DNA from: Candidatus Oxydemutatoraceae bacterium
GTDB lineage: Bacteria > Pseudomonadota > Gammaproteobacteria > Poriferisulfidales > Oxydemutatoraceae
Assembly (NCBI GenBank): GCA_965237985.1
Contig: OZ250161.1
Location: 185,691-249,690, forward strand
Direction: 5' to 3'
DNA: 64,000 nt
Part shown: in pieces, positions 12,861 through 37,625 of the stretch
How positions within the stretch are numbered: the stretch's first letter is position 1
Layout of the letters: each line of letters begins with the position of its first letter
Notes under the pieces: generated by a model
What the model was told of the DNA's origin: nothing
What the model saw: only the letters and a program-made list of their open reading frames with translations
Database searches by the model: none
Made by a program: the position numbers and the translations under genes

Positions 12861-13191
12861 TTTGCATATTGGCCTCCGGAAGGTTGGGTCGTTTCATCAA
12901 CACCTATCTTCCGAGGCCCTTTACGCCAATGCAATCGGCAACGGCCCGCTCGCTACAGCGCTCCATAAGGGCGCGCTTCGCGGGCTGCAGAGTAACCGCC
13001 GGAGTCTCACATCTATCTGAACCTATTCACAAGTGCTGGCTGCCGGTGTCAAATCCAGATAGATAAGGTCCGCTTCCGACAGAACAGAAACGCCCGATGA
13101 GTGATGCTCATCCCTTTGGGATTTACCCTTGTTTTGCGACCGTGCTGGAATTAAAAGCAGCAAAATCTGTGCGAAAATGGAGCATGCCATT

Positions 13192-13265
13192 GCCGGTGTA
13201 GCTCAGTACGGCAGAGCAACTGATTCGTAATCAGTAGGTCGGTGGTTCAAATCCACTCACCGGCA
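13192..13265 (+). tRNA. tRNA-Thr (anticodon CGT)
   Basis: Cloverleaf with acceptor GCCGGTG/CACCGGC, D-stem GCTC/GAGC, anticodon stem ACTGA/TCAGT with loop TTCGTAA, T-arm GGTGG-TTCAAAT-CCACT, discriminator A. Confidence 0.85.
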
Positions 13266-14096: not shown

Positions 14097-14468
14097 TTGC
14101 CGAAGCGGACGGCACCTTGTGGCAAAATGGTGAAAGCTCCTATTGGGAAAAGTAATCGCATCACGCCTGAACAGGAAAAGTCGGAAACGAGTTCGTTAAA
14201 TCTCATTCACGTCCAAAAAATACAGTTGAAAGTTTTTCGCTCCAGAGAGCGCTTCAACGACATGAAAGAGAAGTTGCGGACGTATTTTTGGTTCTCAGAT
14301 GTTCACTACGATTTGTCGGTAACCGACCCCAAAATTGAAAAGCAATATCTGGCTCGGAATAACGGTGACTATGATGTCGATGAGTGCCATTTGACGATCA
14401 GCCTCGGCGAACCCTATGTTCATGACAAGAAATGTTACAAGCTGGTTGCTGCTGCGATAACGATATAA
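14097..14468 (+). CDS. Hypothetical protein (123 aa), no recognisable domain
   Basis: Only sizeable ORF in an otherwise ORF-poor 1.4 kb region; the coding call is weak. Confidence 0.3.
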   Translation: MPKRTAPCGKMVKAPIGKSNRITPEQEKSETSSLNLIHVQKIQLKVFRSRERFNDMKEKLRTYFWFSDVHYDLSVTDPKIEKQYLARNNGDYDVDECHLTISLGEPYVHDKKCYKLVAAAITI

Positions 14469-14697
14469 AGTGGATGCCGTTGCCGACGTCAGGTCGCATC
14501 CGTACAGCAGGCGAAACGCAAACGCATCAAGGTTTCCTGACCGACCAAGGTGCAATAAAATACTGCCGTAGAGGCAGTCTGGCTAGTTTGCATATAGTTT
14601 TCAGGACACGATTTTCTCCTCTTGCCTAGTTGCGCATGGTGCCTGAACAAATTTTTTACCCGTTGTCACCCTGCCACCTGCCCGTGTCAACACGATA

Positions 14698-15162
14698 ATG
14701 AATCTAAGAAAAATGATGTTTGAGGATATCGAGGATGTCATCAGCATCGAGGTTGCCAGCTATGGTTTTCCTTGGGGCGAGAAAACCTTTCGTGACTGTA
14801 TATTTTTGGGCTATCCCTCCTACGTTGTTGAGTACGTGGGGAAAATTGTCGGCTATGTTATCGTGGCCCATGGCAGGCGAAGCTCTCACATCCTGAATTT
14901 GTGTGTTTCCCCCAAACACAGGAAGCAAGGTTGGGGACGAGGGCTTTTGCAGTCATCGTGTAGGGAAGCGGAGTGCCTGGGTTCGTCTTGTATTTTTCTT
15001 GAGGTCCGCTCCAGTAATGCCGGAGCTAAATCCCTTTACGAATCCGAATTTTTTCGAGTGATTTCCGTCAAAAAAGATTATTACCCCGCACGGCACGGTC
15101 GGGAAGACGCGCTGGTTTATTTCAAGGTCTTGGGTCACTTCGGCAACCTTGTCACCAGTTAA
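14698..15162 (+). CDS. rimI: Ribosomal-protein-alanine N-acetyltransferase (GNAT)
   Basis: 'FPWGEKTF...LNLCVSPKHRKQGWGRGLL...LEVRSSNAGAKSLYES' corresponds to E. coli RimI 'FPWSEKTF...RRGLGRMLL...LEVRASNAAAIALYES'. Confidence 0.85.
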   Translation: MNLRKMMFEDIEDVISIEVASYGFPWGEKTFRDCIFLGYPSYVVEYVGKIVGYVIVAHGRRSSHILNLCVSPKHRKQGWGRGLLQSSCREAECLGSSCIFLEVRSSNAGAKSLYESEFFRVISVKKDYYPARHGREDALVYFKVLGHFGNLVTS

Positions 15163-15456
15163 AATATGTGACGTGAAGGGTTTGTGATGGTTGGGACAAC
15201 TCAACGATTTTTGCCGATTTCCTGTTCTCGTTCTCAGTGACAGGATTCCGGGCAGGAAAAACGTGTTTTTTGTTCCGTTATGGGTTGACTGATTCTGAGA
15301 ATCTGTGTTCCTTTCTGGTATCAAATGAAAGGTGGCAGTTCCGTTTTTCGAGAAGTGGGCAGCCCGTAGCCTTGGTGCTTGACTTGCTGACGGTGGTGAA
15401 ATGTGAGTCATGTGAGGGTTACATGTCATTGCAAAGCACAGGATAATTCCACTGTG

Positions 15457-15530
15457 CGGGGCATGGCGCAGTTTGGTAGCGCACCTGCTTTGGGAGCAGG
15501 GGGTCGGAGGTTCAAATCCTCTTGCCCCGA
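15457..15530 (+). tRNA. tRNA-Pro (anticodon TGG)
   Basis: Acceptor CGGGGCA/TGCCCCG, anticodon stem CCTGC/GCAGG with loop TTTGGGA, T-arm GGAGG-TTCAAAT-CCTCT. Confidence 0.85.
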
Positions 15531-15565
15531 TTCGCGTGATTTAGATTTGTTTTTCTAATTTCAAG

Positions 15566-16186
15566 GTGTCGAAAATGAAGATTTTGGTTTTGGAAACCAG
15601 TCCCTATGTTCGGAAAGTCTGCATTGTGGCAGATGAAAAAGGCATGGTATACGAAAGAGTGGCGACCCACCCACGGGTGCGCCCGGCGCTACTGGCTGAA
15701 AGTAATCCGCTGGGAAAAGTCCCGGTACTCATAGACGATGGCGGCAGGGCGATTTTTGATTCAAATGTCATAGTGGATTACTTGGATGCAAAAGGGGGCA
15801 AACCTTTCTTTATTCCCGCTGATCTGGAACAGCGAATAGCAGTGAAAACCGTGGCAAGCGCGGCGGACGGGATTGTCGATGCAGTGGTTGCTGTGGTCGC
15901 GGCCAGGCTCGTGGACAAGGAGAACGTTTCCGAGCGCTGGGCAAACTGGCAGTTTGGAAAAGCCTCTACAGTTCTGGAGTGGCTTGAAAAAAGGTCAAAT
16001 GCTGGAGATTACTTTTGTTTTGGGCGATTGACTTTGGCGGATGTCGCCTTGGTCTGTGCACTTGATTGTCTGGACAGGCGGGCGCCACAACTTGCTTGGC
16101 GAGATCATTGCCCCGGGTTGTTGTCCAGTTTCGAAATGCTGTCGCTGCGTGACGCGTTCGCAAAAAACTTGAAGGCCTCCAACTGA
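15566..16186 (+). CDS. Glutathione S-transferase family protein
   Basis: A thioredoxin-like N-domain 'KILVLETSPYVRKV...NPLGKVPVL...DSNVIVDYL' is followed by an alpha-helical GST C-domain. Confidence 0.75.
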   Translation: MSKMKILVLETSPYVRKVCIVADEKGMVYERVATHPRVRPALLAESNPLGKVPVLIDDGGRAIFDSNVIVDYLDAKGGKPFFIPADLEQRIAVKTVASAADGIVDAVVAVVAARLVDKENVSERWANWQFGKASTVLEWLEKRSNAGDYFCFGRLTLADVALVCALDCLDRRAPQLAWRDHCPGLLSSFEMLSLRDAFAKNLKASN

Positions 16187-16190
16187 TTCT

Positions 16191-16264
16191 GCGCCTGTAG
16201 CTCATCCGGACAGAGCATCGGTCTTCTAAACCGAGGGTAGCAGGTTCGAGTCCTGCCAGGCGCG
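16191..16264 (+). tRNA. tRNA-Arg (anticodon TCT)
   Basis: Acceptor GCGCCTG/CAGGCGC, anticodon stem TCGGT/ACCGA with loop CTTCTAA, T-arm GCAGG-TTCGAGT-CCTGC. Confidence 0.85.
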
Positions 16265-16313
16265 TTTTTCGCTTGCCGGTGGCTACGCCGAGTGGGCAGA
16301 GACGGCAGGCACT

Positions 16314-16343
16314 GTCGGCAGGGCTTCGTGGTGGAGGTATAAT
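16314..16343 (+). promoter_or_regulatory. Candidate sigma70 promoter for the tRNA-His/tRNA-Lys pair
   Basis: A perfect -10 'TATAAT' at 16338..16343 lies 12 nt before tRNA-His; the -35 is weak. Confidence 0.3.
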
Positions 16344-16354
16344 GAATCGTGGAT

Positions 16355-16428
16355 GGTGGGCGTAGCTCAGTTGGTAGAGCGCAGGATTGTGGCTCCTGAG
16401 GCCGTGGGTTCAATGCCCATCGCTCACC
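16355..16428 (+). tRNA. tRNA-His (anticodon GTG) with the extra 5' G(-1)
   Basis: 'GGTGGGCGTAGCTCAGTTGGTAGAGC...CAGGATTGTGGCTCCTG...GTGGGTTCAATGCCCATCGCTCACC' resembles E. coli tRNA-His, including the G-1:C73 pair. Confidence 0.85.
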
Positions 16429-16444
16429 CCGGTGCTTGTTTTTT

Positions 16445-16517
16445 GGGCCATTAGCTCAATTGGTAGAGTAGCTGACTCTTAATCAGTAGGTTCGGGGTTC
16501 GAGTCCCCGATGGCCCC
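16445..16517 (+). tRNA. tRNA-Lys (anticodon CTT)
   Basis: Acceptor GGGCCAT/ATGGCCC, anticodon loop CTCTTAA, T-arm CGGGG-TTCGAGT-CCCCG. Confidence 0.8.
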
Positions 16518-16728
16518 CATCCCGGAGGCAACGCCTTCACACCGGCGAGACCCCATTGACTGGCAGAGGCCATTTTCTCCAGGTGTTTGCAACCTTCCGG
16601 ATTCAGATTGTGAAGTGCTTCCCGGGCCGGGAGATTCTCTGACTGGCCCTGGCAGTGCAATTTGAGCGGCGAGCTTCAAAATACCTGTGATTGTGTTGCC
16701 GATGCGAGCCATTGTGCATCACCGGATT

Positions 16729-17704: not shown

Positions 17705-18772
17705 TTGTGTGCTCGGCTTAGGATGCCACGGGGCAGGGAAGGACAAAACCCCGTGCTGATTCGCAGTGAATTTCGTCCTGCCTGGTGGCTGCCTGATTCC
17801 CATTCCCAAACGCTTTGGGCAAACCTGGTTCGGCCTGTTTCGCGGGTTCACACTGAACTCCGGCGGCTGGAGCTTCCCGATGGCGATTTCCTGGATCTGC
17901 GTTTCGCGGGTCCGCGGGAAGGTCCGATCGCGTTGGTTTTGCCGGGCCTCGGTGGCTCTCTGGACTCTCGCTACGCGGTCGGTATGATGCAGAATCTGGG
18001 AGGACAAGGCTTTTCCTGTGTTTTTATCTACTACCGGAATTGTTCGGACGAACCCAACCGCCTGCCAGGCAGCTTTCATGCCGGAGAAACAGGTGATTTG
18101 AATTTTGTCATTGAACGACTCATGGTCTGGTATCCCGGCCGCCAGATTGTGGCGATTGGTTACTCATTGGGTGCGAATATGTTGCTGAAATACCTGGGGG
18201 AATTCGGCAACCGCGCCAGTCTGGCAGCGGCAGTCGCTGTTTCGGTGCCTTTTGACCTTGCGCAAACCGTTGCCTGCCTGATGCGGGGGTTTTCGCGCAT
18301 TTACCAGGCACATCTGCTCCTTGGTGTGAAAAAAAGATTTTTGCGAAAATGTGCGGTGACTCCGATGCCGGGGATTTCCACACAGGAAGTCGTTTCTGCG
18401 CAAAGCATCCGGGAATTCGATGAAGTGGCAACATCCAGGCTACACGGCTTTCAGAATGCCGAACATTATTACCAGTCTGCAAGTTGCCGCCCTTGGTTGC
18501 GTGACATTGTCGTCCCGACGCTCGTACTACAGGCGCGTGACGATCCTTTTTCCCTGCCCGAGTCGCTACCCGAAAACAGTGAATTGTCAGCAGATGTTAG
18601 CATTGAAGTGAGCGAGCGAGGCGGCCACGTTGGCTTTGTTTCCGGGAATTCTCCCTTGCGGCCGCGCTACTGGTTGGAAGAAAGGGTCAGCAGCTACCTT
18701 GTTGACGATATGCACATCGGCAGGCAGACTTCAGGGAGTGGGAGCGGGAGTTCCCGGCAGGAGATGAACTAA
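17705..18772 (+). CDS. Alpha/beta-fold hydrolase, YheT family
   Basis: 'FRPAWWLPDSHSQTLW...LELPDGDFLDL...GYSLGANML...ERGGHVGFVSG' aligns with E. coli YheT 'FTPYWQRLELPDGDFVDL...GYSLGGNML...EHGGHVGFIGG'. The 3' end is inside a tandem repeat. Confidence 0.8.
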   Translation: MCARLRMPRGREGQNPVLIRSEFRPAWWLPDSHSQTLWANLVRPVSRVHTELRRLELPDGDFLDLRFAGPREGPIALVLPGLGGSLDSRYAVGMMQNLGGQGFSCVFIYYRNCSDEPNRLPGSFHAGETGDLNFVIERLMVWYPGRQIVAIGYSLGANMLLKYLGEFGNRASLAAAVAVSVPFDLAQTVACLMRGFSRIYQAHLLLGVKKRFLRKCAVTPMPGISTQEVVSAQSIREFDEVATSRLHGFQNAEHYYQSASCRPWLRDIVVPTLVLQARDDPFSLPESLPENSELSADVSIEVSERGGHVGFVSGNSPLRPRYWLEERVSSYLVDDMHIGRQTSGSGSGSSRQEMN

Positions 18773-19463
18773 GCGCATATGCGGCCACGTTGGTTTTGTT
18801 TCCGGGAATTCTCCCTTGCGGCCGCGCTACTCGCGCTATTCGTGCTACTCGCTGGAAGAAAGGTGTCAGCAGTTACCATGTTGACGATATGCATGTTCGT
18901 TGGCAGGCGGGCTTTAGGGAGTGGGAGCGGGAGTTCCCGGCAGGAGATAAACCAAGCGAATATGCGGCCACGTTGGCTTTGTTTCCGGGAATTCTCCCTT
19001 GCGGCCGCGCTACTGGCTGGAAGAAAAGGTCAGCAGCTACCTTGTTGACGATATGCACGTTCGTTGGCAGGCAGACTCTAGGGAGTGGGAGCGAGAGTTC
19101 CCGGCAGGAGATAAACTAAGCGCATGTGCGGCCACGTTGGCTTTGTTTCCGGGAATTCTCCCTTGCGGCCGCGCTTATACTGGCTGGAAGAAAGGGTCAG
19201 CAGCTATCTTGTTGACGATATGCACGTTCGTTGGCAGGCAGACTCTAGGGAGTTGGAGCGAGAGTTCCCGGCAGGAAATAAACTAAGCGCATGTGCGGCC
19301 ACGTTGGCTTTGTTTCCGGGAATTCTCCCTTGCGGCCGCGCTACTCGCACTACTGGCTGGAAGAAAGGGTCAGCAGCTACCTTGTTGACGATATGCACGT
19401 CGGCAGGCAGACTCCAGGAAGTGGGAGCGGGAGTTCCCGGCAGGAGATAAACTAAGCGAATAT
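18621..19463. repeat. Tandem repeat of 5 units (160-183 bp) spanning the yheT 3' end and the cybB start
   Basis: Units begin with 'gcggccacgttggctttgtttccgggaattctcccttgcggccgcgct' at 18621, 18781, 18964, 19128 and 19295. Each ends '...ggcaggagataaactaagcg(c/a)at(a/g)t'. The copies have diverged slightly from one another. Confidence 0.9.
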
Positions 19464-20022
19464 GTGGACACGACTGCAACGCCCGGATGGCAAAAATGGT
19501 TTCGCCTGGGTACTGATTGTCGTGCACTGGGGCGTGTTTGTTCTGGTTTTTACTTTGTTCGTGCTGGGTTTGTATATGACTGGGCTGAATTATTACGACG
19601 AGTGGTACTATCTTGCTCCTTATTATCACAAGAGTTTTGGCATGCTGCTTTTCCCAATCATTTTGTTTTGGTTTTGCCACCGAGTGCTGGTTCGTCGCCC
19701 GATTCGGTCGCCCGAACTAAAACCTTGGCAGAAAAATACGTCGCGCCTTGTACACCTCGCGATGCTTTGGTTGATTTTCGCCATTGCTTTCACGGGCTAT
19801 TTGATTCCCACAGCCCAGGGCATGCCGGTAGAAGTGTTTAGCTGGTTTCGTGTGCCGGCGCTGCTGGCCGAGCTCCCCGACCCGGAAGATATTGTTGGCG
19901 ACATGCATTATTACTTGTCCTGGGTACTGGTAATTCTGGTTGGACTGCATGCACTTGCAACACTGAAACACCATTTTTTGCATCGCGACCAGACCCTGCT
20001 TCGGATGCTGGGGCGTGATTGA
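19462..20022 (+). CDS. Cytochrome b561 family protein (CybB/YceJ-like)
   Basis: Four-TM membrane protein. 'HWGVFVLVFTLFVLGLYMTGLNYYDEWY...YHKSFGMLLFPIILFWFCHR' matches the CybB 'HW...YYD.WY...HKS.G...' signature. cytochrome b561 next to YceI is as in E. coli yceJ-yceI. Confidence 0.8.
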   Translation: MWTRLQRPDGKNGFAWVLIVVHWGVFVLVFTLFVLGLYMTGLNYYDEWYYLAPYYHKSFGMLLFPIILFWFCHRVLVRRPIRSPELKPWQKNTSRLVHLAMLWLIFAIAFTGYLIPTAQGMPVEVFSWFRVPALLAELPDPEDIVGDMHYYLSWVLVILVGLHALATLKHHFLHRDQTLLRMLGRD

Positions 20023-23173: not shown

Positions 23174-24451
23174 TTATGCCGCTGAGGCGCTGAGCGCCTG
23201 TTCGAGGTCAGCCAGGATGTCGTCAATGTGCTCAATGCCGATGGACAGCCTCACCATTTCCTCAGTTACCCCGGCAGATTTCAACTCCTCTTCTCCCAAT
23301 TGACGGTGCGTCGTGGTGGCCGGATGACATGCCAGGGAGCGCGCATCTCCAATGTTTACCAGACGCAAAATCAGTTTCAAAGCATCGATGAACTTCGTGC
23401 CGGATTCCCTGCCACCGATAATGTCGAAACTGAGAATGCCCGCGGCTTTGCCATCCCGCAAATAACGCTTCACGTTTTTGCTGTCCGGGTGTCCAGGGAG
23501 ACCTGGATAGGTTACCCGGGTGACTCGCTCATGTTGCAGAAGATATTCAGCGACAGCCAGAGCGTTGTCACTGTGGCGCACGATGCGTAGCGCTAAGGTT
23601 TCCAGACCCTGCAAGACCAGGAAACTGTTGAAAGGAGAAATAGCCGAGCCCGTGTTACGCAATGGGACGAGCCGAGCGCGACCGATGAACGCCGCTTTGC
23701 CAAAAGCTTCCGTGTAAACCACTCCATGGTAGGAAGGGTCAGGCGTGCTTAAAAGAGGGAAGCGCTCAGGGTGATCCGCCCAAGGAAAGTTTCCCGAATC
23801 CACAATGACCCCTCCGATGCTGTTGCCATGTCCGCCCATGTATTTGGTCAGGGAATGCACCACGATGTCTACGCCATGATCGAAGGGACGGCATAAATAA
23901 GGGGTTGGCACCGTGTTGTCGACGACGACCGGTACTCCGTGACGATGTGCCATCTCGGAAATAGCGGCCAAGTCTGGGACATCGCACGCCGGGTTGCCAA
24001 TCGATTCAAAAAACACGGCCTTGGTGTTCTCGTCAATCAGTTTCTCCATGGCCTCGGCAGAACTGTTCGTGAAGCGGGCCTCTATGCCAATGGCCGGAAA
24101 AGTATGTGCAAAAAGATTGTACGTGCCCCCGTAAAGCGTGGCTGAAGAAACAATGTTGTCTCCCGTACCGGCAATGGCAGTGATGGTGTAATTGATCGCC
24201 GCCATCCCGGAAGATACCGCCAGAGAACCAATCCCGCCTTCCATTTCAGTGACCCGCTGCTCAAGGACAGCGGTGGTTGGGTTCATGATGCGTGTGTAAA
24301 TGTTGCCAACTTCTTTGAGGTCAAACAGATCGGCTCCGTGCTGTGTATCACGGAATGTGTAGGAAGTCGTTTGGTAAATTGGAGTTACAGCGGCGCGCGT
24401 GGTTTCCTCAGCTTGATAACCTCCGTGCACGGCAACAGTTTCAAATTTCAT
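23174..24451 (-). CDS. metY: O-acetylhomoserine/O-acetylserine sulfhydrylase (PLP-dependent)
   Basis: '[13 protein letters not shown]...TTSYTF...[10 protein letters not shown]' is a Cys/Met-metabolism PLP enzyme signature. The start was set at 'MKFETV'. Confidence 0.9.
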
Positions 24452-25287
24452 TGCATATCCTGTGTTGGGCTGGAAACGGAATCTATGCTTACGCAACAAA
24501 GCTCCAGCATGCTTTTGCTCTTGGCGGTTCTTGGACCATGCTAAAAAAGGTTACACGGCAGCACGAGATTGTATCCATCAGCCCCCCACAATGCAAGGGT
24601 TTTCCGGAAACCAATCGAGAATTCGAATGAAGGTTTGAATGAAGACGAGGACGAGGAGCATAAAAGCGTTGGACTTGCCAGAGGAGCAGGTTTGCCGGGT
24701 CAGGCTTGCAGCTGGGTCAGGCCTGTAGCGAGCTTTGGCGTGCCCAATCCAGCGGCAACCCCAACCATCGCGCCTTCTTGTCCGGGAGGCATCATTTTTC
24801 CGTGTCGAAGATTGTGATTCACTGGAATACGGACAATGAGTTTGTGCATCACGAAAGCACAAACACGAGTGACAAAGCGACCTGTGTCTGATTCATGAGA
24901 AACGAAAAACATCATAATCGCTGCCAAGCCTTCGACCGATGTGAGCAAAGGGCAGCGAACTGCCGTGGTCAACAGGAAAAAATCACTTCAGGCGCTGTGA
25001 ACGGAGGTGGCGGGTAGAGACGGGACAGGTGCCTCCCGGCGGCAACGGAACGGCTGTGGCGTGGTGGCAAGTGTGCCACAGCCAAACGATTTACTGCTGG
25101 GGAATCGTTTATGGCATCTCGCCCCGATGTCGCAAAAAATGAATCACAGGCAAATTTTCCAGGGTCGATGCCTTAAAACGCACCGCAGTCTCTGCCGCCT
25201 TTCATCATCAGTGATTCTATGGGCGCCGGCAAACCAGCTGATTCATTCGCCGGATCCTTCTGGTTTTGAGCTCATAAAATTTACGCT

Positions 25288-26433
25288 TCACTGTTTGCTC
25301 CTTCCCATCACCAGTGACTCTTCATCAATCTCAAACACATCCGGCGTTGAGCGACGGACACCAAAGCCATGTTCCATCAGGAGCGTCACGAGCTGTTCCC
25401 CGTTCATGAGGGCAATGGGTGTCTTATCTGCTTGGGAGGCTTCTTTGTCAGCTCCACTGCTGAAGTCGCTGGTGGTGATGATCAGGCCTTGTTCGTGGGC
25501 TCCCAGGCTGCCGCGCACCTGCTGAACTACCGGGGCCTGCACATTGTTCTTGGGTTTCCATTTCTTGGCCTGGATGGCCATTTTGATGTGGATAACATCA
25601 CCCACAACCAAGGTTCCACGAACATCGATGCCCTTATCTCCGCTGAGTTTAGTGACCTCAACCTTCTCAAAGCCCATTTCGGTGAGGAGCAGGGAAATGA
25701 GCGTCTCAAACTCGTCTGGGTTCATGGTCGACAGTTTTTTGTGCAGGGACTTTCGAGTTTTGTGATTGTGTTGTTCAATCTGAGACGCCAAGCCAGCTTT
25801 CATCCATTGACTTAGGCCGATATAGCCTTTTGCATTCTGCACAAAGAAGGGTTGTTCGCCGCGCTTCTTTTGATTCCTGATCTTGCTACCCACCTGGGCG
25901 CCCATGGTGCTTGCGGGAGTCTTTCCCGCCGTAACCAGCCAGCCCTGTTCCTGGGCCTTTGTGGTGATGTCCCTGTAGTACATCGGTTTTCCTTCGCCAA
26001 ATTCCTCAAGCACTTTCTGAGCGCAGACTATAAATGAAAATCCCGTAACGGATGGAGCGACTTTCAGTCCTGAGCTTCCCAACGACTTTGGATCCTGGGG
26101 TTCATCCTGAGGTGTCAGGCCAGCTTTCATCCATTGACTCAGGCCGATATAGCCTCCTGTATGCTGCACAAAGAGGGGTTGTTCGCCGCGCTTCTTTTGA
26201 TTCCTGATCTTGCTGCCCACCACGGCGCCCATGGTGCTTTCGGGAGTCTTTCCCGCCGTGACCAGCCAGCCCTGTTCCAGGGCCTTTCTGGTGATCTCCC
26301 TGTAGTGCATCGGTTTTCCTTCGCCAAATTCCTCAAGCACTTTCTGAGCGCAGACTATAAATGAAAATTCCATAACGGATGGAGCGACTTTACAGTCCTG
26401 AACTTCCCAACGACTTTGGATCCTGGGATTCAT
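25288..26433 (-). CDS. Mrr-like type IV restriction endonuclease with two tandem N-terminal HARE-HTH/Mrr_N winged-helix domains
   Basis: C-terminal Mrr_cat motif 'FETLISLLLTEMGFEKVEVTKLSGDKGIDVRGTLVVGDVIHIKMAIQAKKWK...VVQQVRG...GLIITTSDFS'. The N-terminus has two copies of the approximately 105-aa domain 'FSFIVCAQKVLEEFGEGKPMHYREITRKALEQGWLVTAGKTPESTMGA...RGEQPLFVQHTGGYIGLSQWM'. Confidence 0.75.
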   Translation of the reverse strand: MNPRIQSRWEVQDCKVAPSVMEFSFIVCAQKVLEEFGEGKPMHYREITRKALEQGWLVTAGKTPESTMGAVVGSKIRNQKKRGEQPLFVQHTGGYIGLSQWMKAGLTPQDEPQDPKSLGSSGLKVAPSVTGFSFIVCAQKVLEEFGEGKPMYYRDITTKAQEQGWLVTAGKTPASTMGAQVGSKIRNQKKRGEQPFFVQNAKGYIGLSQWMKAGLASQIEQHNHKTRKSLHKKLSTMNPDEFETLISLLLTEMGFEKVEVTKLSGDKGIDVRGTLVVGDVIHIKMAIQAKKWKPKNNVQAPVVQQVRGSLGAHEQGLIITTSDFSSGADKEASQADKTPIALMNGEQLVTLLMEHGFGVRRSTPDVFEIDEESLVMGRSKQ

Positions 26434-26700
26434 CGTCAGCTTTCATCCATTGACTCAGGCCGATATAACCCCGTGTATGCTGCACAAAGAGGGGTTGTTC
26501 GCCGCGCTTCTTTTGATTCCTGATCTTGCCGCCCATCTGGGCGCCCATAGTGCTTTCGGGAGTCTTTCCCGCCGTGACCAGCCAGCCCTGTTCCAGGGCC
26601 TTTCTGGTGATCTCCCTGTAGTGCATCGGTTTTCCTTCGCCAAATTCCTCAAGCACTTTCTGAGCGCAGACTATAAATGAAGGGTCATGACAAGTTAAGC
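25790..26700. repeat. Tandem repeat, about 2.8 units of about 320 bp, encoding the HARE-HTH domain
   Basis: Units start 'cagctttcatccattgactcaggccgatatagcc' at about 25793, 26121 and 26437. Confidence 0.85.
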
Positions 26701-26926
26701 GGGCGGTTGCGAGTGAGAGCGCGGGGTAAGAGCCAAGACTGAGGCTAGTACGTACTTTTGTATGTGGGCGGTAGTAATCAAGCAACCAGATTTTTGAGCC
26801 GTTGGGTTTGACGCGCAGTTGTAATCCACCACCATCTGAAAGGGTATAAATCTTCGGTTTCGATTTGGCTCGATCAATTCCCGTATTGGTTAGTGGTTTG
26901 GTCGTTTTGGCTATTTTTAGTAGCAC
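26390..26926 (-). pseudogene. Remnant of a P4/CP4-57-type tyrosine integrase (N-terminal DUF4102 arm-binding domain only), fused to a third HARE-HTH repeat and cut off from the mrr-like ORF by a 1-nt frameshift
   Basis: 'TKPLTNTGIDRAKSKPKIYTLSDGGGLQLRVKPNGSKIWLLDYYRPHTKVRTSLSLGSYPALSLATAR' matches the CP4-57 IntA N-terminus 'TKPLTDTEIKAAKPK..Y.L.DG.GL.L.IK..GSK.W...YYRP.TK.RT...G.YPA.SL..AR'. The catalytic domain is absent. The gene lies 150 bp from the ssrA 3' end. Confidence 0.7.
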
Positions 26927-27016
26927 CGCTATTTGGAGTATATGGATGATACTACTATCGGTACTACTATAAAAGTCGGATTTTACGGCACGGTTTAGGA
27001 TGCCATAGGTATTAAT

Positions 27017-27056
27017 AAAGCCCTAAAACGTTGTTTTTATTACGTTTTAGGGCTTT
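27017..27056 (-). terminator. Intrinsic terminator-like hairpin downstream of ssrA
   Basis: Perfect 14-bp inverted repeat 'aaagccctaaaacg'-N12-'cgttttagggcttt' directly after the tmRNA 3' end, followed on the minus strand by 'uuauuaau'. Confidence 0.5.
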
Positions 27057-27080
27057 ATTGGTTCTCTTAAAACCTTAAGA

Positions 27081-27434
27081 TGGTGGAGGCGGCGGGAATC
27101 GAACCCGCGTCCACGCGCCCTCTGCCATTGGTCCTACATGCTTAGCTTTGCCTTTATTTTCACTTTCCTGCCTCCGGCAAAGCGGGGAGCAGAAAAGCTA
27201 GTGCACTTCGTTGAACCGTCCGGTCGTACACAGTCCGGACAGCGACCCCGCTTTCGATTATGCCTGCAGCAGGCGGCGCGGGTGCCTCTGCCACAGACAG
27301 GCTACAGGTTTTTAGGCTGCGGCCGGTAAGCTGTATGTTTCGTCAGCTAGATTTTTTACAACAGTTTTACGAGTATGCTGCAACCTCGGCATGCACCTCC
27401 GGGTTCGCAGCTCATGTCGAAGCCAGGTCGCCCC
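27081..27434 (-). ncRNA. ssrA: tmRNA (transfer-messenger RNA, SsrA)
   Basis: The reverse complement begins 'GGGGGCGACCTGGCTTCGACATGAGCTGCGAACCCGGAGGTGCATGCCGAGG' (tmRNA 5' end) and ends '...GGACGCGGGTTCGATTCCCGCCGCCTCCACCA' (tRNA-Ala-like 3' end with CCA). The internal tag reading frame is '...GCT GAC GAA ACA TAC AGC TTA CCG GCC GCA GCC TAA'. Confidence 0.9.
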
Positions 27435-27625
27435 CTATGGTTTTCATTGGTGTTCATTGTACAGGAAATCGAGGCAGTCAACCACTGGATCAGTGTTTTC
27501 ACATTTCGCTGGTGAACTGACGTTTTTAGCACTGGCAGGCGTCTGAGTAGTGGTTTGTCGGCGGTTCGTCCGCAGCTTCCTAGTGAGGGAGCTTTGTTAT
27601 ACTGCGGGGGCCAAACGGCCTGAAA

Positions 27626-30677: not shown

Positions 30678-30796
30678 GTGTTAAGATGGCTCTGTTTGCC
30701 TGGAATGTCGGCTTTCTCAGTTGCCGGCCTGGCAAGGGGAGATACCTTTTCGTGCGGGCATTTGCTGTTGTCTGTAGTTTTTTCAGGGAGGGGAGA

Positions 30797-30904
30797 ATGA
30801 CCTACGTAGTGACTGAGGGGTGCATAAAGTGCAAGTACACTGATTGCGTTGAAGTTTGTCCGGTGGATTGTTTTCACGAGGGGGCGAACTTTGTTGGCAA
30901 TTGA
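30797..30904 (+). pseudogene. Frameshifted 5' copy of fdxA (copy 1)
   Basis: '[35 protein letters not shown]'. One extra nucleotide ('aactttgttggcaatt' against 'aactttttggtaatt') shifts the frame after 'ANF'. Confidence 0.8.
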
Positions 30905-31018
30905 TCCCGTCGAGTGCATTGACTGTGCTTTGTGTGTCCCCGAATGTCCGATCGATGCGATTGTGTTAGATTCATGCGGGCATTTGCTGTTGTCTGTGGT
31001 TTTTTCAGGGAGGGGAGA

Positions 31019-31126
31019 ATGACCTATGTAGTGACTGAGGGGTGCATAAAGTGCAAGTACACTGATTGCGTTGAAGTTTGTCCGGTGGATTGTTTTCACG
31101 AGGGGGCGAACTTTGTTGGCAATTGA
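31019..31126 (+). pseudogene. Frameshifted 5' copy of fdxA (copy 2)
   Basis: Carries the same +1 lesion as copy 1, which implies the mutated unit was itself re-duplicated. Confidence 0.8.
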
Positions 31127-31240
31127 TCCCGTCGAGTGCATTGACTGTGCTTTGTGTGTCCCCGAATGTCCGATCGATGCGATTGTGTTAGATTCGCGCG
31201 GGCATTCGCTGTTGTCTGTGGTTTTTTCAGGGAGGGGAGA

Positions 31241-31564
31241 ATGACCTATGTAGTGACTGAGGGGTGCATAAAGTGCAAGTACACTGATTGCGTTGAAGTT
31301 TGTCCGGTGGATTGTTTTCACGAGGGGGCGAACTTTTTGGTAATTGATCCCGTCGAGTGCATTGACTGCGCTTTGTGTGTCCCCGAATGTCCGATCGATG
31401 CGATTGTGTCCGATGATGATCTTCCTGAAGATCAGAATCATTTTCTGGCACTCAATGCGGAACTGACAGAAATCTGGCCGGTCATCACCGAAAAAAAGCC
31501 TGCTCCTGCTGATGCGGACCAGTGGTGTGAGAAAAAAAACAAGCTCAGTCATCTGATTCGTTGA
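31241..31564 (+). CDS. fdxA: 7Fe ferredoxin ([3Fe-4S][4Fe-4S], Azotobacter FdxA type)
   Basis: '[55 protein letters not shown]...[16 protein letters not shown]', 107 aa, near-identical in layout to FdI of Azotobacter and Pseudomonas. Confidence 0.95.
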
Positions 31565-34574: not shown

Positions 34575-35087
34575 TCATTGTAGTTTGCCGCTCGTGATGA
34601 ATTGGGAAAAAGTTTCACACCAGATCAGGGCGCTTTTCACGGTATTCAGGTCAACATGGGCGGGAATGGGGAAAGATTGGTAACCCTCGAATTGCTGAAT
34701 GTTGCCAACGAAGTGAGAGCCGGCTTTTATGGCGAGAAATGCGTTTTCGGTTTCAATATCATCCCGCCTGTTGATCAAATAAAGCTTGTAATTCGGCCCG
34801 TTGGTGACCTTGAAATTGTCTTCCAGCACGACCCAGTTTGTGCTTTGGAAGCGAACAATTTTGAAGTTTCCCCGGCCGCGGTGAAGCAGGTCGGAATCGT
34901 TCGCGGCGGGGTTGAAACGCCCGCTTTTGAGGACCTGCGTTTGAGTGCTTGAGGGATCTTCCAGCTGGCGTTTCAACTCGCGACCTTGGGGACTGGGTTG
35001 CTGTTCGATACTGCGGTGGGTGTACCAGAGAAGAAAGGCAGGGACGAGCAGGCTAGCAGCGACCACCGCGGAAATAGTTTTTTTCAT
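34575..35087 (-). CDS. DM13 domain-containing exported or membrane-anchored protein
   Basis: N-terminal hydrophobic anchor 'MKKTISAVVAASLLVPAFLLWY'. 'FKIVRFQSTNWVVLEDNFKVTNGPNYKLYLI' matches the DM13 'F.vtnGPdL.VyL' core. Confidence 0.6.
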   Translation of the reverse strand: MKKTISAVVAASLLVPAFLLWYTHRSIEQQPSPQGRELKRQLEDPSSTQTQVLKSGRFNPAANDSDLLHRGRGNFKIVRFQSTNWVVLEDNFKVTNGPNYKLYLINRRDDIETENAFLAIKAGSHFVGNIQQFEGYQSFPIPAHVDLNTVKSALIWCETFSQFITSGKLQ

Positions 35088-35960
35088 GTTCCCGCCATCA
35101 TAACTGTTCGGTTTTCAATGCCGTTTAGCCGGGTTTTGTTGCGGATAGGTCATTGCATCGCTCTCGCTTGTGCGGGAAGCAACAAACAACCAGAGGCTGA
35201 CAGATTTCATTGTCCTGCGTGTGAAGGTGAAGCAGGTCAGTTCCATTCGCAGTGGGGTTGAAATGCCCGCTTTTACGGGTCTGTAGTTGAGTTACTGACG
35301 TGCCTGACGGATCTGCCAGCTGGCGTTTCAACTCGCGACCTTGGGGACTGGGTTGCTGTTCGATACTGCGGTGGGTGTACCAGAGAAGAAAGGCAGGGAC
35401 GAGCAGGCTGGCAGCGACCACCGCGGAAATAGTTTTTTTCATGTTCCCGCCATCATAACTGTTCGGTTTTCAATGCCGTTTAGTCGGGTTTTGTTGCGGA
35501 TAGGTCATTGCATTGCTCTCGCTTGTGCGGGAAGCAACAAACAACCCGAGGCTGACGATTTCATTGTCCTGCGTGTTGAAGGTGAAGCAGGTCAGTTCCA
35601 TTCGCAGTGGGGTTGAAACGCCCGCTTTTACGGCTCTGTAGTTGAGTTGCTGACGTGCCTGACGGGCCGCCCGGCTGGCGTTTCAACTCGCGACCTTGGG
35701 GACTGGGTGGCTGTTCGATGCTGCGCTGGGTGTACCAGAGAAGAAAGGCAGGGACGAATGGGCTGGCAGCGACCACCGCGGAGATAGTTTTTCTTGCGAT
35801 CCTGCTATCATAACTGTTCGGTTTTCAATGTCGTGCTTCCGTTCGTGCGGGGACCAGCAACCCAGGGCAACGATTTCATTGTCCTGCGTGTTGAAGGCGA
35901 AGCAGGTTAAATTCGTTTGCAGTGGGGTAGACGCTGGACATCGTGCTTTTCAAAAAGGTG
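34890..35960. repeat. Tandem repeat, 3 units of about 356 bp, duplicating the first approximately 60 codons and promoter region of the DM13 gene
   Basis: Units start 'ccagctggcgtttcaactcgcgaccttggggactgggt' at about 34961, 35317 and 35673. Upstream copies give truncated ORFs 35125..35442(-) and 35561..35776(-) starting 'MKKTISAVVAASLLVPAFLLWYTHRSIEQ'. Confidence 0.9.
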
Positions 35961-36255: not shown

Positions 36256-36696
36256 GTGGCTTCAAGAATCATCCCCAAAGCAGACTTGTGCTTGATGCTC
36301 ACGCCGTCGGTACAACGACGGATAGATACTCATCTCGGACAACGCATTCGGACCTTGAGACGTATGCGCAGCGCTACGCTTTTGGATGTGGCGACTTTGC
36401 TCAATCGCTCAGCTCAGCAGGTATCACGCCTCGAAAGCGGGGCCTGTCGGGTTTCGGTGGCGCAGCTTTGCATGATTTCCGTTTGGTATGGCGCCCGTTT
36501 GGGGTGGTTTTTTTACGGTTTGGAAGAAGCGTTTCCGGATTTTGGAAACCAGGTTCGGGAACGTTTGACGGTTTACGATTATCGCGAACGCGAAGAGTCC
36601 GAAAAGGCACTGCTTACCGCTTTTCGCGCGCTCAAGTCCAGGAATTGCCGCCGGCACTTGGTCAGGCTGGTAGAAGGCCTTGCCAACGAAGTCTAA
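36256..36696 (+). CDS. XRE-family (Cro/C1-type) HTH transcriptional regulator
   Basis: 'LGQRIRTLRRMRSATLLDVATLLNRSAQQVSRLESG' is a classic HTH_XRE. The C-terminal approximately 80 aa are unassigned. The last 30 codons lie inside a tandem repeat. Confidence 0.75.
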   Translation: MASRIIPKADLCLMLTPSVQRRIDTHLGQRIRTLRRMRSATLLDVATLLNRSAQQVSRLESGACRVSVAQLCMISVWYGARLGWFFYGLEEAFPDFGNQVRERLTVYDYREREESEKALLTAFRALKSRNCRRHLVRLVEGLANEV

Positions 36697-37625
36697 GCGG
36701 CATTTCGCTGCCTTCAGGTAGAACCGGCGGAGCCCTCCTGACCGGTCGTGTGCTTCGTGTCGGTTCCCTGTTTTTCGTGCCCTTCCCGGAGTGGAGCCGC
36801 GGGGGAGCCACTGCTTACTGCTTTTCGCGCGCTCAAGTCCAGGAATTGCCGCCGGCACTTGGTCAGGCTGACAGAAGGCCTTGCCAACGAAGTCTAAGCG
36901 GTATTTCGCTGCCTTCAGGTAGAACCGGCAGAGCCCCCCTGACCGGTCGTGTGCTTCGTGCCGGTTCCCTGTTTTTCGTGCCCTTCTCGGAGTGGAGTTG
37001 CTGGGGAGCCACTGCTTACTGCTTTTCGCGCGCTCAAGTCCAGGAATTGCCGCCGGCACTTGGTCAGGCTGACAGAAGGCCTTGCCAACGAAGTCTAAGC
37101 GGCATTTCGCTGCCTTCAGGTAGAACCGGCGGAGTCCCCCTGACCGGTCGTGTGCTTCGTGCCGGTTCCCTGTTTTTCGTGCCCTTCTCGGAGTGGAGTT
37201 GCTGGGGAGCCACTGCTTACTGCTTTTCGCGTGCTCAAGTCCAGGAATTGCCGCCGGTACTTGGTCAGGCTGACAGAAGGTCTTGCCAACGAAGTCTAAG
37301 CGGCATTTCACTGCCTTCAGGTAGAACCGGCGGAGCCCTCCTGACCGGTCGTGTGCTTCGTGCCGGTTCCTCGTTTTTCGTGCCCTTCCCGGAGTGGAGC
37401 CGCGGGGGAGGCACTGCTTACTGCTTTTCGCGCGCTCAAGTCCAGGAGTTGCCGCCGGCACTTGGTCAGGCTGACAGAAGGCCTTGCCAACGAAGTCTAA
37501 GCGGCATTTCACTGCCTTCAGGTAGAACCGGCGGAGCACCCCTGACCGGTCGTGTGCTTCGTGCCGGTTCCTCGTTTTTCGGACCCTTCCCGGAGTGGAG
37601 TTGCAGGGGAGCCACTGCTTCTGTC
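36607..37625. repeat. Tandem repeat, about 5 units of about 200 bp, duplicating the 3' end of the XRE regulator plus downstream sequence
   Basis: Units 'cactgcttactgcttttcgcgcgctcaagtccaggaattgccgccggcacttggtcaggctg(a/g)(c/t)agaaggccttgccaacgaagtctaagcgg' start at about 36607, 36812, 37011, 37212 and 37412. Confidence 0.9.

What the first reader, a model, noticed from the sequence alone, without database searches (positions are those of the whole stretch)
24500..27434. Eroded ssrA-integrated island: CP4-57-type integrase stub fused to an Mrr-like restriction enzyme with a triplicated HARE-HTH domain
The tmRNA 3' end is the classical attB of P4/CP4-57-family integrases. Here only the approximately 76-aa arm-binding N-terminus of the integrase survives (26700-26926). 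It continues in frame into a HARE-HTH repeat and is separated by a single-nucleotide frameshift (extra T at about 26396) from an Mrr-catalytic-domain ORF with two more HARE-HTH copies, all from a 320-bp tandem repeat. Mrr-type enzymes normally have one N-terminal winged helix. Tandem DNA-recognition modules could alter modified-DNA specificity. No second att half-site was recognised at the distal end, which fits erosion.
Basis: partly seen in the sequence, partly recalled or inferred. Interest (0 to 1): 0.55.

Follow-up and report, generated by a model that had tools for sequence, protein, structure and literature searches.

The report
Decayed restriction-gene relic beside tmRNA gene
Next to the tmRNA gene lies the 2.6-kb wreck of an inserted island: a dead integrase stub joined to a frameshifted, 5'-truncated restriction-type nuclease whose DNA-reading domain was copied three times, a kind of remnant that is common, in a genome that makes such tandem copies everywhere.

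Summary
The tmRNA gene lies at 27081-27435(-). After it comes a 72-76-codon IntA/CP4-57-type integrase stub, which runs in frame into a HARE-HTH domain. One extra T at 26392 (not 26396) separates this ORF from a second one carrying two more HARE-HTH copies and an Mrr_cat nuclease with intact motifs. No second att site exists.

The interpretation needs correcting in three places. First, the nuclease belongs to a very large family (>2600 relatives, PADLOC candidate PDC-S02) whose normal form has two different HARE-HTH domains (A and B), not one. Here A and the native start codon are gone, and all three copies are B-type. Second, arrays of 3-9 HARE-HTH copies recur in this family, so a triplication is not special. 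Third, 11% of this window is long-period tandem repeat (9 arrays), against none in 787 kb of control loci, so this array is probably a by-product of a lineage-wide duplication habit.

The integrase stub has also lost its ATG. Relatives with 91%-identical MetY carry different defence genes at this spot, which bounds the variable segment at 24519-27080.

Most likely this is an eroding defence-gene relic. Expression of a residual two-reader nuclease is not excluded. Low-to-moderate interest.

The parts
27081..27435 (-). ssrA (tmRNA), complete, tag DETYSLPAAA; its 3' end is the attachment point of the island
   Evidence: ARAGORN; Rfam RF00023 186 bits, full model
27014..27059 (-). Perfect 18-bp inverted repeat with a 10-nt loop, 22 nt after the tmRNA 3' end. 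Probably the terminator of ssrA (inferred).
   Evidence: the repeat finder I1. A hairpin occupies the same position after E. coli ssrA in the CP4-57 junction alignment.
26946..26973 (-). Sigma-70-like -35/-10 match (TTTATA-16-TATCAT) upstream of the integrase stub. Possible residual int promoter; weak evidence.
   Evidence: Consensus scan, 9 of 12. The number of such sites does not exceed shuffles.
26699..26914 (-). IntA/CP4-57-type integrase pseudogene stub: 72 codons of the arm-type DNA-binding domain. The native start codon is mutated (ATA at 26914-26912). The only in-frame start is GTG at 26926.
   Evidence: Pfam PF13356 1.1e-15. NCBIfam PRK09692 positions 2-75/413. 56% identical to E. coli IntA aa 1-72, with window Ile5 aligned to IntA Met1. 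Relatives start MARTTKPLTN whereas the window has IAKTTKPLTN. Coordinates.
26681..26698 (-). Deletion junction / 18 nt of unassigned filler (LTCHDP) between the end of integrase homology and the start of HARE-HTH homology
   Evidence: Integrase homology ends at ...LATAR. Repeat homology starts at TCATTTATAGTC.
26438..26680 (-). HARE-HTH copy B1, in frame with the integrase stub and lacking the linker that precedes B2 and B3
   Evidence: Pfam HARE-HTH 2.9e-15; unit coordinates
26390..26392 (-). TAA created by a 1-nt insertion (T at 26392) in the B1-B2 linker. It splits the reading frame.
   Evidence: Compare GGACTGTAAAGTC with GGACTGAAAGTC in the B2-B3 linker. Removing the T gives a 545-codon ORF.
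26371..26373 (-). ATG exactly at the N-terminal edge of copy B2 (MEFSF; B3 has TGFSF, family consensus xGFSF), 16 nt after the TAA. Candidate restart codon for a 361-aa B2-B3-nuclease protein. No clear Shine-Dalgarno sequence.
   Evidence: Sequence; family consensus; coordinates
26122..26364 (-). HARE-HTH copy B2
   Evidence: Pfam; unit coordinates; AF2 pLDDT >90, winged-helix topology
25795..26037 (-). HARE-HTH copy B3, the copy in the ancestral position directly before the nuclease linker
   Evidence: Pfam; alignment to family consensus; AF2 pLDDT >90
25378..25731 (-). Mrr_cat PD-(D/E)xK-type nuclease domain. Motif I: DEFETL at 25716-25699. Motif II: GDKGID at 25641-25624. Motif III: IQAKKW at 25575-25558.
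   Evidence: Pfam PF04471 6.6e-26. BLASTP to EcoKMrr E 4e-10. Motif definitions from PMC2790908. Coordinates.
25288..26433 (-). The 381-aa ORF as held in public protein databases (P0001). Its first 20 residues are out-of-frame linker sequence.
   Evidence: the ORF listing; identical protein P0001 in NCBI/ENA
24519..25287 (.). About 770 bp of unassigned spacer forming the distal part of the variable segment. No protein family, RNA family, plasmid match or att repeat. Collinearity with related genomes resumes at 24518.
   Evidence: Pfam at E<=1: nothing credible. Rfam: none. Plasmids: none. blastn boundary against L092-L094.

Best explanation
Window 24519-27080 is the eroded remainder of horizontally acquired DNA at the ssrA integration hot spot.

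Proposed history (inferred unless marked otherwise):
1. An IntA/CP4-57-type element integrated into the 3' end of ssrA.
2. A later deletion ran from integrase codon ~73 into a downstream defence gene. That gene was a member of the widespread family with HARE-HTH domain A, HARE-HTH domain B and an Mrr_cat nuclease, which elsewhere usually follows a type I hsdR gene.
3. The deletion removed the integrase catalytic domain and everything between. In relatives that interval holds type I R-M genes. It also removed the gene's promoter, start codon and A domain.
4. The B domain plus part of its upstream linker was duplicated twice. The unit is 327 bp. The process is the same local tandem duplication that has filled 11% of this window with arrays of 100-355-bp units.
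5. A 1-nt insertion then split B1 from B2-B3-nuclease, and the integrase stub lost its ATG.

How the intact family most likely works (inferred): the HARE-HTH winged helices read modified DNA and the Mrr-type PD-QxK nuclease cuts it, as a type IV-like restriction/defence enzyme.

In this window the gene is most likely no longer a working defence gene, or is on its way out.

Shown: domain content, junctions, frameshift, lost start codons, absence of att and of partner genes, excess substitutions, genome-wide arrays.
Inferred: order of events, island cargo, loss of function.
For: Domains and junctions.

Integrase stub:
- Covers IntA residues 1-72 only, and Met1 is replaced by Ile.
- No integrase catalytic domain, attR, HsdR, HamA or GajA trace in the window.

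Family context:
- Canonical family architecture is A + B + Mrr_cat, about 350 aa, in more than 2600 relatives. The window has only B-type copies.
- In relatives the gene follows hsdR: L001 and L002; Geobacter L005-L007, where a YgjP-like gene lies between.

Signs of decay:
- The B copies break 10-13 of 56 columns that are at least 95% conserved in the family (family mean 0.75, maximum 7).
- The nuclease breaks 7 of 109 such columns, equal to the family maximum.
- dN/dS between copies is 0.45-1.08.

Boundary of the variable segment:
- Genomes with 91%-identical MetY are collinear only up to window 24518. Beyond that they carry other defence genes, some also broken.

Tandem arrays:
- 9 long-period arrays in 64 kb (11%), and 20-29% in the relatives' loci, against 0 in 787 kb of 80 control loci.
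- The arrays share no sequence with one another.
Against: - The 1.1-kb B2-B3-nuclease frame is still open, and all Mrr motif residues are present.
- Since B2 and B3 diverged (15 of 243 nt) no frameshift has hit that ORF. This argues for selection during much of that time.
- An ATG sits exactly at the start of B2, 16 nt after the stop.
- A-less versions with a clean in-frame deletion exist elsewhere (L002, P0004/L004). Old, diverged multi-copy arrays with an intact nuclease also exist (P0213, P0218). So neither loss of A nor extra B copies is by itself inactivating.
- The substitutions shared by all three copies cluster in helix 3 (6 of 13 conserved columns there, against 3 of 43 elsewhere; p = 0.003). 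This looks like remodelling of a recognition surface in a working gene rather than random decay.
- Whether the nuclease gene was cargo of the IntA element or an older neighbour cannot be decided.
Confidence: 0.6

Rival explanations
1. The locus still encodes a working enzyme. This would be a 361-aa protein (from ATG 26373) or the 381-aa protein (from ATG 26433), made of two B-type HARE-HTH readers and the Mrr nuclease. It would be transcribed from the residual int promoter and translated by restart after the upstream ORF. It would act as a type IV-like nuclease with a reader surface that differs from the rest of the family. The int'-B1 ORF would be junk or a separate small DNA-binding protein.
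For: - Open 1146-nt frame with intact motifs I-III.
- 102 of 109 conserved nuclease columns are kept.
- ATG lies at the domain edge, 16 nt after the TAA.
- Both B domains fold confidently in AF2, pLDDT >90.
- Shared substitutions are concentrated in helix 3 (p = 0.003).
- A-less and multi-B relatives exist.
- Public annotation calls the 381-aa ORF a protein.
Against: - No recognisable Shine-Dalgarno sequence before either ATG.
- The promoter-like match is no better than chance.
- The native start and the A domain were lost by a scar, not by the clean in-frame deletion seen in L002 and L004.
- B2/B3 dN/dS is about 1.
- Motif II has GDKGID where 98% of the family has GDGGID.
- The nuclease sits at the family maximum for broken conserved columns.
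Confidence: 0.3
2. The extra T at 26392 is an assembly or sequencing error, or is bypassed. The real product would then be one 545-aa fusion: integrase arm domain, three HARE-HTH domains and the Mrr nuclease.
For: Removing one base restores a continuous 545-codon frame. The int'-B1 junction is in frame.
Against: - The T is not in a homopolymer (CTG-T-AAAG), so a typical long-read indel error is unlikely.
- The native integrase ATG is lost.
- CUG-UAA-A offers no re-pairing for a +1 shift (own reasoning).
- The same 381-aa protein is in public databases, so the deposited sequence has the same frame.
- An in-frame junction has a prior of 1 in 3.
Confidence: 0.05
3. The nuclease gene was never cargo of the IntA element.
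For: - Relatives with 91%-identical MetY have a different set of defence genes, including another broken Mrr_cat, directly upstream of metY. So the site is a long-standing defence hot spot.
- No attR is left.
- GC of the stub (0.45-0.46) differs from the nuclease gene (0.52).
Against: - There is no sequence similarity between the window's 24519-27080 and the relatives' cargo. The layers are therefore not demonstrably shared.
- The relatives' Mrr_cat fragments are a different Mrr type.
- I could not reach ssrA in the relatives.
Confidence: 0.35
4. The triplication is an adaptation. Multiplying the reader would raise avidity or set the spacing for recognising several modified sites. It would have been selected in this gene specifically.
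For: - 18 of the best 150 cluster representatives have 3 or more HARE-HTH stretches, with up to 7 copies plus Mrr_cat, some old (35-54% identity between copies).
- In another lineage (L003, L004) the HARE array is the only notable long-period array in ~15 kb, beside a weak 1.9-copy, 74%-match repeat at L003 12346-12632.
- Related winged-helix type IV enzymes cut better with two modified sites close together (PMC11037411).
Against: - In this lineage tandem arrays of unrelated local sequence are everywhere. No gene-specific selection is needed.
- One of the three copies is cut off by a frameshift.
- Copies evolve at dN/dS 0.45-1.08.
Confidence: 0.15

Closest known systems
CP4-57 cryptic prophage integrase IntA at ssrA (E. 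coli K-12) and the P4-like integrase family
   Same: - Same gene order and strand: ssrA 3' end, then about 170-200 nt containing a hairpin, then int.
- 56% identity over IntA residues 1-72.
- Arm-DNA-bind_3 domain present.
- ssrA as an integration site is documented (PMC5148205 and PMC10107115, found).
   Different: - Only the first 72 of 413 residues remain.
- The start codon is mutated.
- There is no catalytic domain, no attR and no element behind it.
Family with two HARE-HTH domains plus Mrr_cat (PADLOC candidate system PDC-S02; 'HARE-HTH fused to REase' of Aravind & Iyer 2012, as cited in PMC4738411 and PMC10853773)
   Same: - 58-63% identity over B domain and nuclease to hundreds of ~350-aa members from many phyla.
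- PDC-S02 model match at 9e-45.
- Same linker and nuclease motifs.
   Different: - The A domain and native start are missing.
- The B domain is present three times.
- There is a frameshift between B1 and B2.
- 10-13 of 56 near-invariant B columns are changed, mostly in helix 3.
- No hsdR or Hachiman neighbours, unlike L001 and L005.
EcoKMrr (E. coli type IV methyl-directed restriction enzyme)
   Same: - Mrr_cat fold family. Motif I FE, motif II D-x3-D and motif III Q-A-K are all present.
- In E. coli, mrr also lies next to hsdR, as this family does in L001, L002 and L005.
   Different: - Only 28% identity, confined to the nuclease domain.
- Spacing between motif II and motif III is 2 residues longer (own count).
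- No biochemical data exist for this family.
Multi-copy HARE-HTH members of the same family (P0002, P0003, P0004, P0006, P0008, P0213, P0218)
   Same: - Tandem B-type HARE-HTH arrays ahead of one Mrr_cat.
- P0004 and P0008 are also A-less with three B copies.
- Some arrays are equally young, with 93-99% identity between neighbouring copies.
   Different: - Those genes keep their own start codon and an unbroken frame.
- In L003 and L004 the HARE array is the only notable long-period array nearby.
- Here the array is one of nine in the window and is interrupted.

Membership tests
P4/CP4-57 (IntA)-type tyrosine integrase | N-terminal arm-type DNA-binding domain (Arm-DNA-bind_3 / DUF4102) | tested here: met
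   PF13356 E 1.1e-15, above the gathering score. NCBIfam PRK09692 positions 2-75/413. 56% identity to IntA aa 1-72.
P4/CP4-57 (IntA)-type tyrosine integrase | C-terminal catalytic domain (Phage_integrase, R-H-R-Y) | tested here: not met
   The ORF passes from integrase residue ~72 directly into HARE-HTH. No integrase domain was found in any ORF of 24343-26926. It is a pseudogene stub, not an integrase.
P4/CP4-57 (IntA)-type tyrosine integrase | Sits beside the 3' end of a tRNA/tmRNA gene, with the element flanked by a direct repeat of that 3' end | tested here: inconclusive
   Adjacency to ssrA and orientation are met. The flanking repeat is absent.
Mrr-family nuclease (Pfam Mrr_cat) | Profile match over the whole catalytic domain | tested here: met
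   PF04471 E 6.6e-26, 91 bits against a cut-off of 21, profile 2-115/115. PADLOC mREase_IV 1.7e-16.
Mrr-family nuclease (Pfam Mrr_cat) | Motif I glutamate (E172 in EcoKMrr), motif II D-x3-D (D199/D203), motif III Q-x-K (Q219/K221) | tested here: met
   DEFETL, GDKGID and IQAKKW are present. Aligned to EcoKMrr (the GID motif was placed by eye because BLAST's ungapped stretch is offset by 2). Motif definitions from PMC2790908. The second residue of GDGGID is K here, versus G in 98% of the family.
Mrr-family nuclease (Pfam Mrr_cat) | Modification-dependent DNA cleavage | not testable with these tools
   No biochemical data. No solved relative by sequence. Foldseek against the PDB gave no significant match.
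Family with two HARE-HTH domains plus Mrr_cat (PDC-S02) | B-type HARE-HTH directly followed by the conserved linker (QIEQHNH) and nuclease | tested here: met
   58-63% identity to ~350-aa members over 87-94% of the query. Alignment to the consensus. PDC-S02 9e-45.
Family with two HARE-HTH domains plus Mrr_cat (PDC-S02) | N-terminal A-type HARE-HTH (MxVxxAAIQVLK...) with the native start codon | tested here: not met
   All three window copies align to B; nothing aligns to A. A clean loss of A also occurs in L002 and P0004, so A is not indispensable for membership.
Family with two HARE-HTH domains plus Mrr_cat (PDC-S02) | Unbroken reading frame | tested here: not met
   TAA at 26392-26390, caused by a 1-nt insertion, separates B1 from B2-B3-nuclease.
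Family with two HARE-HTH domains plus Mrr_cat (PDC-S02) | Anti-phage or restriction activity | not testable with these tools
   PDC-S02 is a candidate system. The held papers only list it in censuses. The HARE-HTH reader role is a prediction.

The most novel reading that the evidence does not exclude
In this nuclease family the number of B-type HARE-HTH readers is an evolvable dial. Copy number runs from 1 to at least 7 in proteins that keep the nuclease, and 8-9 HARE-HTH stretches in P0212, where no nuclease domain was detected. Expansions are both old and very recent. Loss of the A reader would tune avidity, site spacing or modification specificity. On this reading, the window gene, with helix 3 rebuilt at 6 of 13 invariant positions before its triplication, is a still-active variant that reads a different DNA modification.
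Probability: 0.15. Interest if true: 0.55.

Novelty: new member of a known kind. Interest (0 to 1): 0.28.

Why it matters
Taken as described, the finding is an ordinary product of genome decay at a well-known integration hot spot. It adds little beyond a correct annotation: both the integrase stub and the nuclease should be treated as probable pseudogenes.

Two things around it are more useful.
- The HARE-HTH/Mrr_cat family is very large and highly conserved (about 60% identity across phyla). It is repeatedly placed after hsdR and before Hachiman genes, and it is biochemically untouched. Its variable reader number offers a natural series of constructs for testing what HARE-HTH domains recognise. 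That question also concerns the eukaryotic ASXL proteins.
- The host lineage carries an extraordinary load of local tandem duplications (11-29% of the sequence examined). This deserves its own study and should be kept in mind when interpreting any repeat in this genome.

Tried and rejected
Searches that found nothing useful:
- Second att site: 26-nt search with up to 3 mismatches, and k-mers of 10-14 nt. Only chance 10-11-mers far away.
- Remnants of HsdR, YgjP, HamA and GajA in the window by tblastn: nothing below E = 1.
- Content of 24519-25287: Pfam at E<=1, Rfam at E<=0.1 and plasmid blastn all gave nothing.
- Solved structures by sequence: none.
- AF2 model plus Foldseek against the PDB: no match with E<0.1. 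Only weak winged-helix and RpoE-delta hits. The nuclease half of the model had only moderate confidence.
- Exact look-ups of window proteins (P0001, TrxB) in the contig index: not on record. Nearest named MetY hits are Halopseudomonas/Pseudomonas at about 71%.
- Metagenome scan for the tmRNA tag region: 0 hits.
- TrxB-based synteny scan: best identity 65-66%, and none of the 58 loci scanned for tRNA/tmRNA genes has ssrA nearby.

Partial or uninformative:
- The closest stub relatives (L009, L010) are themselves IS-disrupted integrases and are not next to a tRNA or tmRNA gene. They said nothing about an intact island.
- I could not walk upstream to ssrA in the 91%-MetY relatives, because only window proteins or search hits may be looked up.

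Ideas considered and rejected:
- Programmed +1 frameshift at CUG-UAA-A: rejected, no re-pairing is possible (own reasoning).
- A shared mobile sequence behind the tandem arrays: rejected, there is no similarity between arrays.

Full report

Yes. ARAGORN and Rfam place a complete tmRNA gene at 27081-27435 on the minus strand (186 bits, full model).

Downstream on the same strand there are two ORFs:
- ORF 26926-26390 (178 aa) carries an Arm-DNA-bind_3 domain (aa 12-78, E 1.1e-15) followed by a HARE-HTH domain (aa 84-160).
- ORF 26433-25288 (381 aa) carries two HARE-HTH domains and a full-length Mrr_cat domain (E 6.6e-26).

Tandem Repeats Finder reports one array at 25792-26681 with period 327, 2.8 copies and 93% matches. 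The copies start 327 and 316 bp apart.

The two ORFs are separated by a single extra T at 26392, which creates TAA 26392-26390. Deleting it yields one 545-codon frame.

No second copy of the ssrA 3' end exists in the 64 kb.

**2. The integrase stub**

- It is 56% identical to residues 1-72 of E. coli K-12 IntA, the CP4-57 integrase that sits next to ssrA (E 5e-22).
- It matches positions 2-75 of the 413-position NCBIfam integrase model PRK09692.
- The layout (tmRNA 3' end, a hairpin, then int about 170-200 nt later on the same strand) is the same as in E. coli.
- Homology stops at ...LATAR (26699). After 18 unassigned bases the HARE-HTH repeat begins at 26680.
- Relatives begin MARTTKPLTN, whereas the window reads IAKTTKPLTN. 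The native ATG is now ATA (26914-26912), and only an upstream GTG keeps the frame open.
- There is no catalytic domain anywhere nearby.

This is a dead stub. The CP4-57-type label is supported as ancestry, not as a working integrase.

**3.

A search of 5.8 billion proteins found more than 2600 relatives. The typical one is about 350 aa, 58-63% identical, and covers about 90% of the query. Sequences and Pfam scans give the canonical form:
- an N-terminal HARE-HTH of type A (MxVxxAAIQVLK...);
- a variable linker;
- a second HARE-HTH of type B (GFSFTDCAQKVLEEFG...);
- a conserved linker (QIEQHNH);
- Mrr_cat.

All three window copies are B-type, and nothing in the window aligns to A. PADLOC files the family under the candidate system PDC-S02 (9e-45) and, more weakly, under type IV methyl-directed enzymes.

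HARE-HTH fused to restriction-type nucleases is a known, predicted modified-DNA reader architecture. The source is Aravind & Iyer 2012, as cited in PMC4738411, PMC10853773 and PMC11037411. I could not read the 2012 paper itself.

Context in relatives:
- In L001 and L002 the gene directly follows a type I hsdR gene, overlapping its end.
- In L001 a HamA gene and a GajA gene come next.
- In Geobacter (L005-L007) a YgjP-like gene lies between hsdR and the nuclease gene, and HamA and a helicase gene follow.
- E. coli mrr also neighbours hsdR.
- None of these partners has left a trace in the window.

**4. Catalytic residues**

The Mrr-family motifs are defined in PMC2790908 as E172, D199/D203 and Q219/K221 of EcoKMrr. 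All are present: DEFETL, GDKGID and IQAKKW.

One blemish: the second residue of GDGGID is K here, while 98% of the family has G.

**5. How unusual is the triplication?**

Not very, for two independent reasons.

*Reason 1: arrays recur in the family.* An exhaustive phmmer search with one B unit against 1.84 billion cluster representatives gave 467 hits. Of the best 150, 18 have three or more HARE-HTH stretches. Examples include:
- seven copies plus Mrr_cat (P0213);
- six copies plus Mrr_cat (P0218);
- eight to nine HARE-HTH stretches in P0212, where no nuclease domain was detected.

Identity between neighbouring copies ranges from 20-54% (old, maintained arrays) to 93-99% (very recent). A-less three-B proteins also exist (P0004, P0008). 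In L002 and L004 the A domain was removed by a clean in-frame deletion that kept the native start codon.

*Reason 2: this lineage makes tandem arrays everywhere.* The window has nine arrays with periods of 108-355 bp, covering 11% of its 64 kb.
- Three contigs from genomes with 91%-identical MetY have 20-29% of 21 kb in such arrays, with different copy numbers at the same sites.
- Eighty unrelated control loci totalling 787 kb have none under the same settings.
- The arrays share no sequence with each other, so they are local duplications, not a mobile element.

The 327-bp HARE array is most simply one more product of that process. In another lineage (L003, L004) the HARE array is the only notable long-period array nearby. 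The family also has its own tendency, so both factors may contribute.

**6. Limits of the variable segment**

The relatives L092-L094 are collinear with the window from the murein transglycosylase gene through metY up to window position 24518. Then similarity stops.

Upstream of metY they carry different defence-type genes:
- a classical Mrr_N-Mrr_cat gene;
- a 1741-aa DUF4011 helicase gene;
- an MZB-domain gene;
- fragments of yet another Mrr_cat gene, which belong to a different Mrr type.

The site is a defence-gene hot spot with several decayed layers. I could not reach ssrA in those relatives.

**7. Alive or dead?**

*For decay:*
- The scar-type loss of A, promoter and start codon.
- The frameshift.
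- The dead integrase stub.
- 10-13 of 56 near-invariant B columns changed (family mean 0.75, maximum 7), and 7 of 109 nuclease columns changed, equal to the family maximum.
- dN/dS of 0.45-1.08 between copies.
- No convincing ribosome-binding site.

*For residual function:*
- The open 1.1-kb frame with intact motifs.
- An ATG exactly at the edge of B2, 16 nt after the stop.
- Confident winged-helix folds for both B domains (pLDDT >90).
- B columns are hit significantly more than nuclease columns (13/56 against 7/109, p = 0.004).
- The nine changes shared by all three copies cluster in helix 3: 6 of 13 conserved columns there against 3 of 43 elsewhere (p = 0.003).

The gene was therefore working for a good part of its history in this lineage.

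My reading: a relic that is now inactive or nearly so (0.6). A still-expressed two-reader enzyme is the main rival (0.3).

**8. Mechanism**

*For the intact family (inferred):* HARE-HTH winged helices bind DNA carrying a foreign modification, and the Mrr-type PD-QxK domain cleaves it. This would be a type IV-like defence that complements the neighbouring type I system.

*For the window (inferred order of events):*
1. An IntA-type element integrated at ssrA.
2. A deletion ran from int codon ~73 into the nuclease gene.
3. The B unit was duplicated twice in tandem.
4. A 1-nt insertion and loss of the int ATG followed.

Whether the nuclease gene was cargo of that element or an older neighbour is open (rival, 0.35).

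**9. Novelty and score**

The find is a new, damaged member of a known kind. Truncated integrases beside tmRNA genes and HARE-HTH/Mrr_cat genes are both catalogued. Interest 0.28.

The lineage-wide tandem arrays are the most surprising thing seen and lie outside the finding.

Noticed in passing
window 18666-19472, 30749-31409, 34945-35834, 36608-37620, 49310-49697, 55126-56345, 59788-60355, 63310-64000 (plus 25792-26681); L092 8535-9778, 11489-13003, 14611-15737, 17969-20249; also L093 and L094: Extraordinary density of long-period tandem arrays: units of 108-355 bp, 2.5-12 copies, 84-97% identity. They make up 11% of the window and 20-29% of three related 21-kb loci, against 0 arrays in 787 kb of 80 control loci. 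Most arrays copy gene ends plus adjacent intergenic DNA (for example a ferredoxin-like 5' end at 30749-31409 and an rsmA-like 5' end at 55126-56345). They share no sequence with one another. Copy number differs between relatives at the same site. Cause unknown.
   Followed up: partly
L092 1383-9800 (also L093, L094), the position homologous to window 24519 onward: Genomes with 91%-identical MetY carry different defence-type cargo upstream of metY: a Mrr_N-Mrr_cat gene (284-414 aa), a 1741-aa DUF4011/AAA_11/AAA_12/MTES_1575 helicase gene, an MZB-domain gene, and split fragments of another Mrr_cat gene (L092 8066-8469). The site is a defence hot spot with several decayed layers.
   Followed up: partly
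P0212, P0213, P0218, P0214; P0002-P0008: Proteins of the same family with 5-9 tandem HARE-HTH domains. P0213 has 7 copies plus Mrr_cat. P0218 has 6 copies plus Mrr_cat. P0212 has 8-9 stretches in 1127 aa, with no nuclease domain detected. Identity between neighbouring copies ranges from 20% to 99%. I found no held paper describing such arrays.
   Followed up: partly
L002 1915-2694; L004 7001-7060 compared with L003 7001-7300: Independent clean in-frame deletions of the A-type HARE-HTH that keep the native start codon (MDVKSAA|NHGFSF and MNIQ|VNPS). L003 and L004 are the same chromosomal locus in related genomes, carrying A+3B versus 3B.
   Followed up: yes
L001 4928-11736; L005 3029-12311 (also L006, L007): Recurrent gene order in distant bacteria: type I hsdR, then (in Geobacter only) a YgjP-like gene, then the HARE-HTH/Mrr_cat gene, then HamA (Hachiman). 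After HamA comes a helicase gene (Geobacter) or GajA (L001). This hints at a conserved defence module or a preferred insertion slot.
   Followed up: partly
window 26371-26373: Two substitutions (ACGGGA to ATGGAA) create an ATG exactly at the first residue of HARE copy 2, 16 nt after the frameshift stop. This could be chance, or a selected restart codon.
   Followed up: partly
one search hit list; L009 6001-7282; L010 2169-4844: Every database hit to the integrase stub is itself short (143 aa or less, Arm-DNA-bind_3 only). This may reflect how the search collects candidates. The two hits inspected are integrase genes split by a frameshift or by an IS, in transposase-rich regions without a tRNA or tmRNA gene nearby.
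   Followed up: partly
window 27014-27059: Perfect 18-bp inverted repeat with a 10-nt loop, just after the tmRNA 3' end. Presumably a terminator. It may come from the island side of the attL junction.
   Followed up: no
window 13191-16518: Five tRNA genes (Thr-CGU, Pro-UGG, Arg-UCU, His-GUG, Lys-CUU), the last three within 330 bp. Not examined for integrated elements.
   Followed up: no
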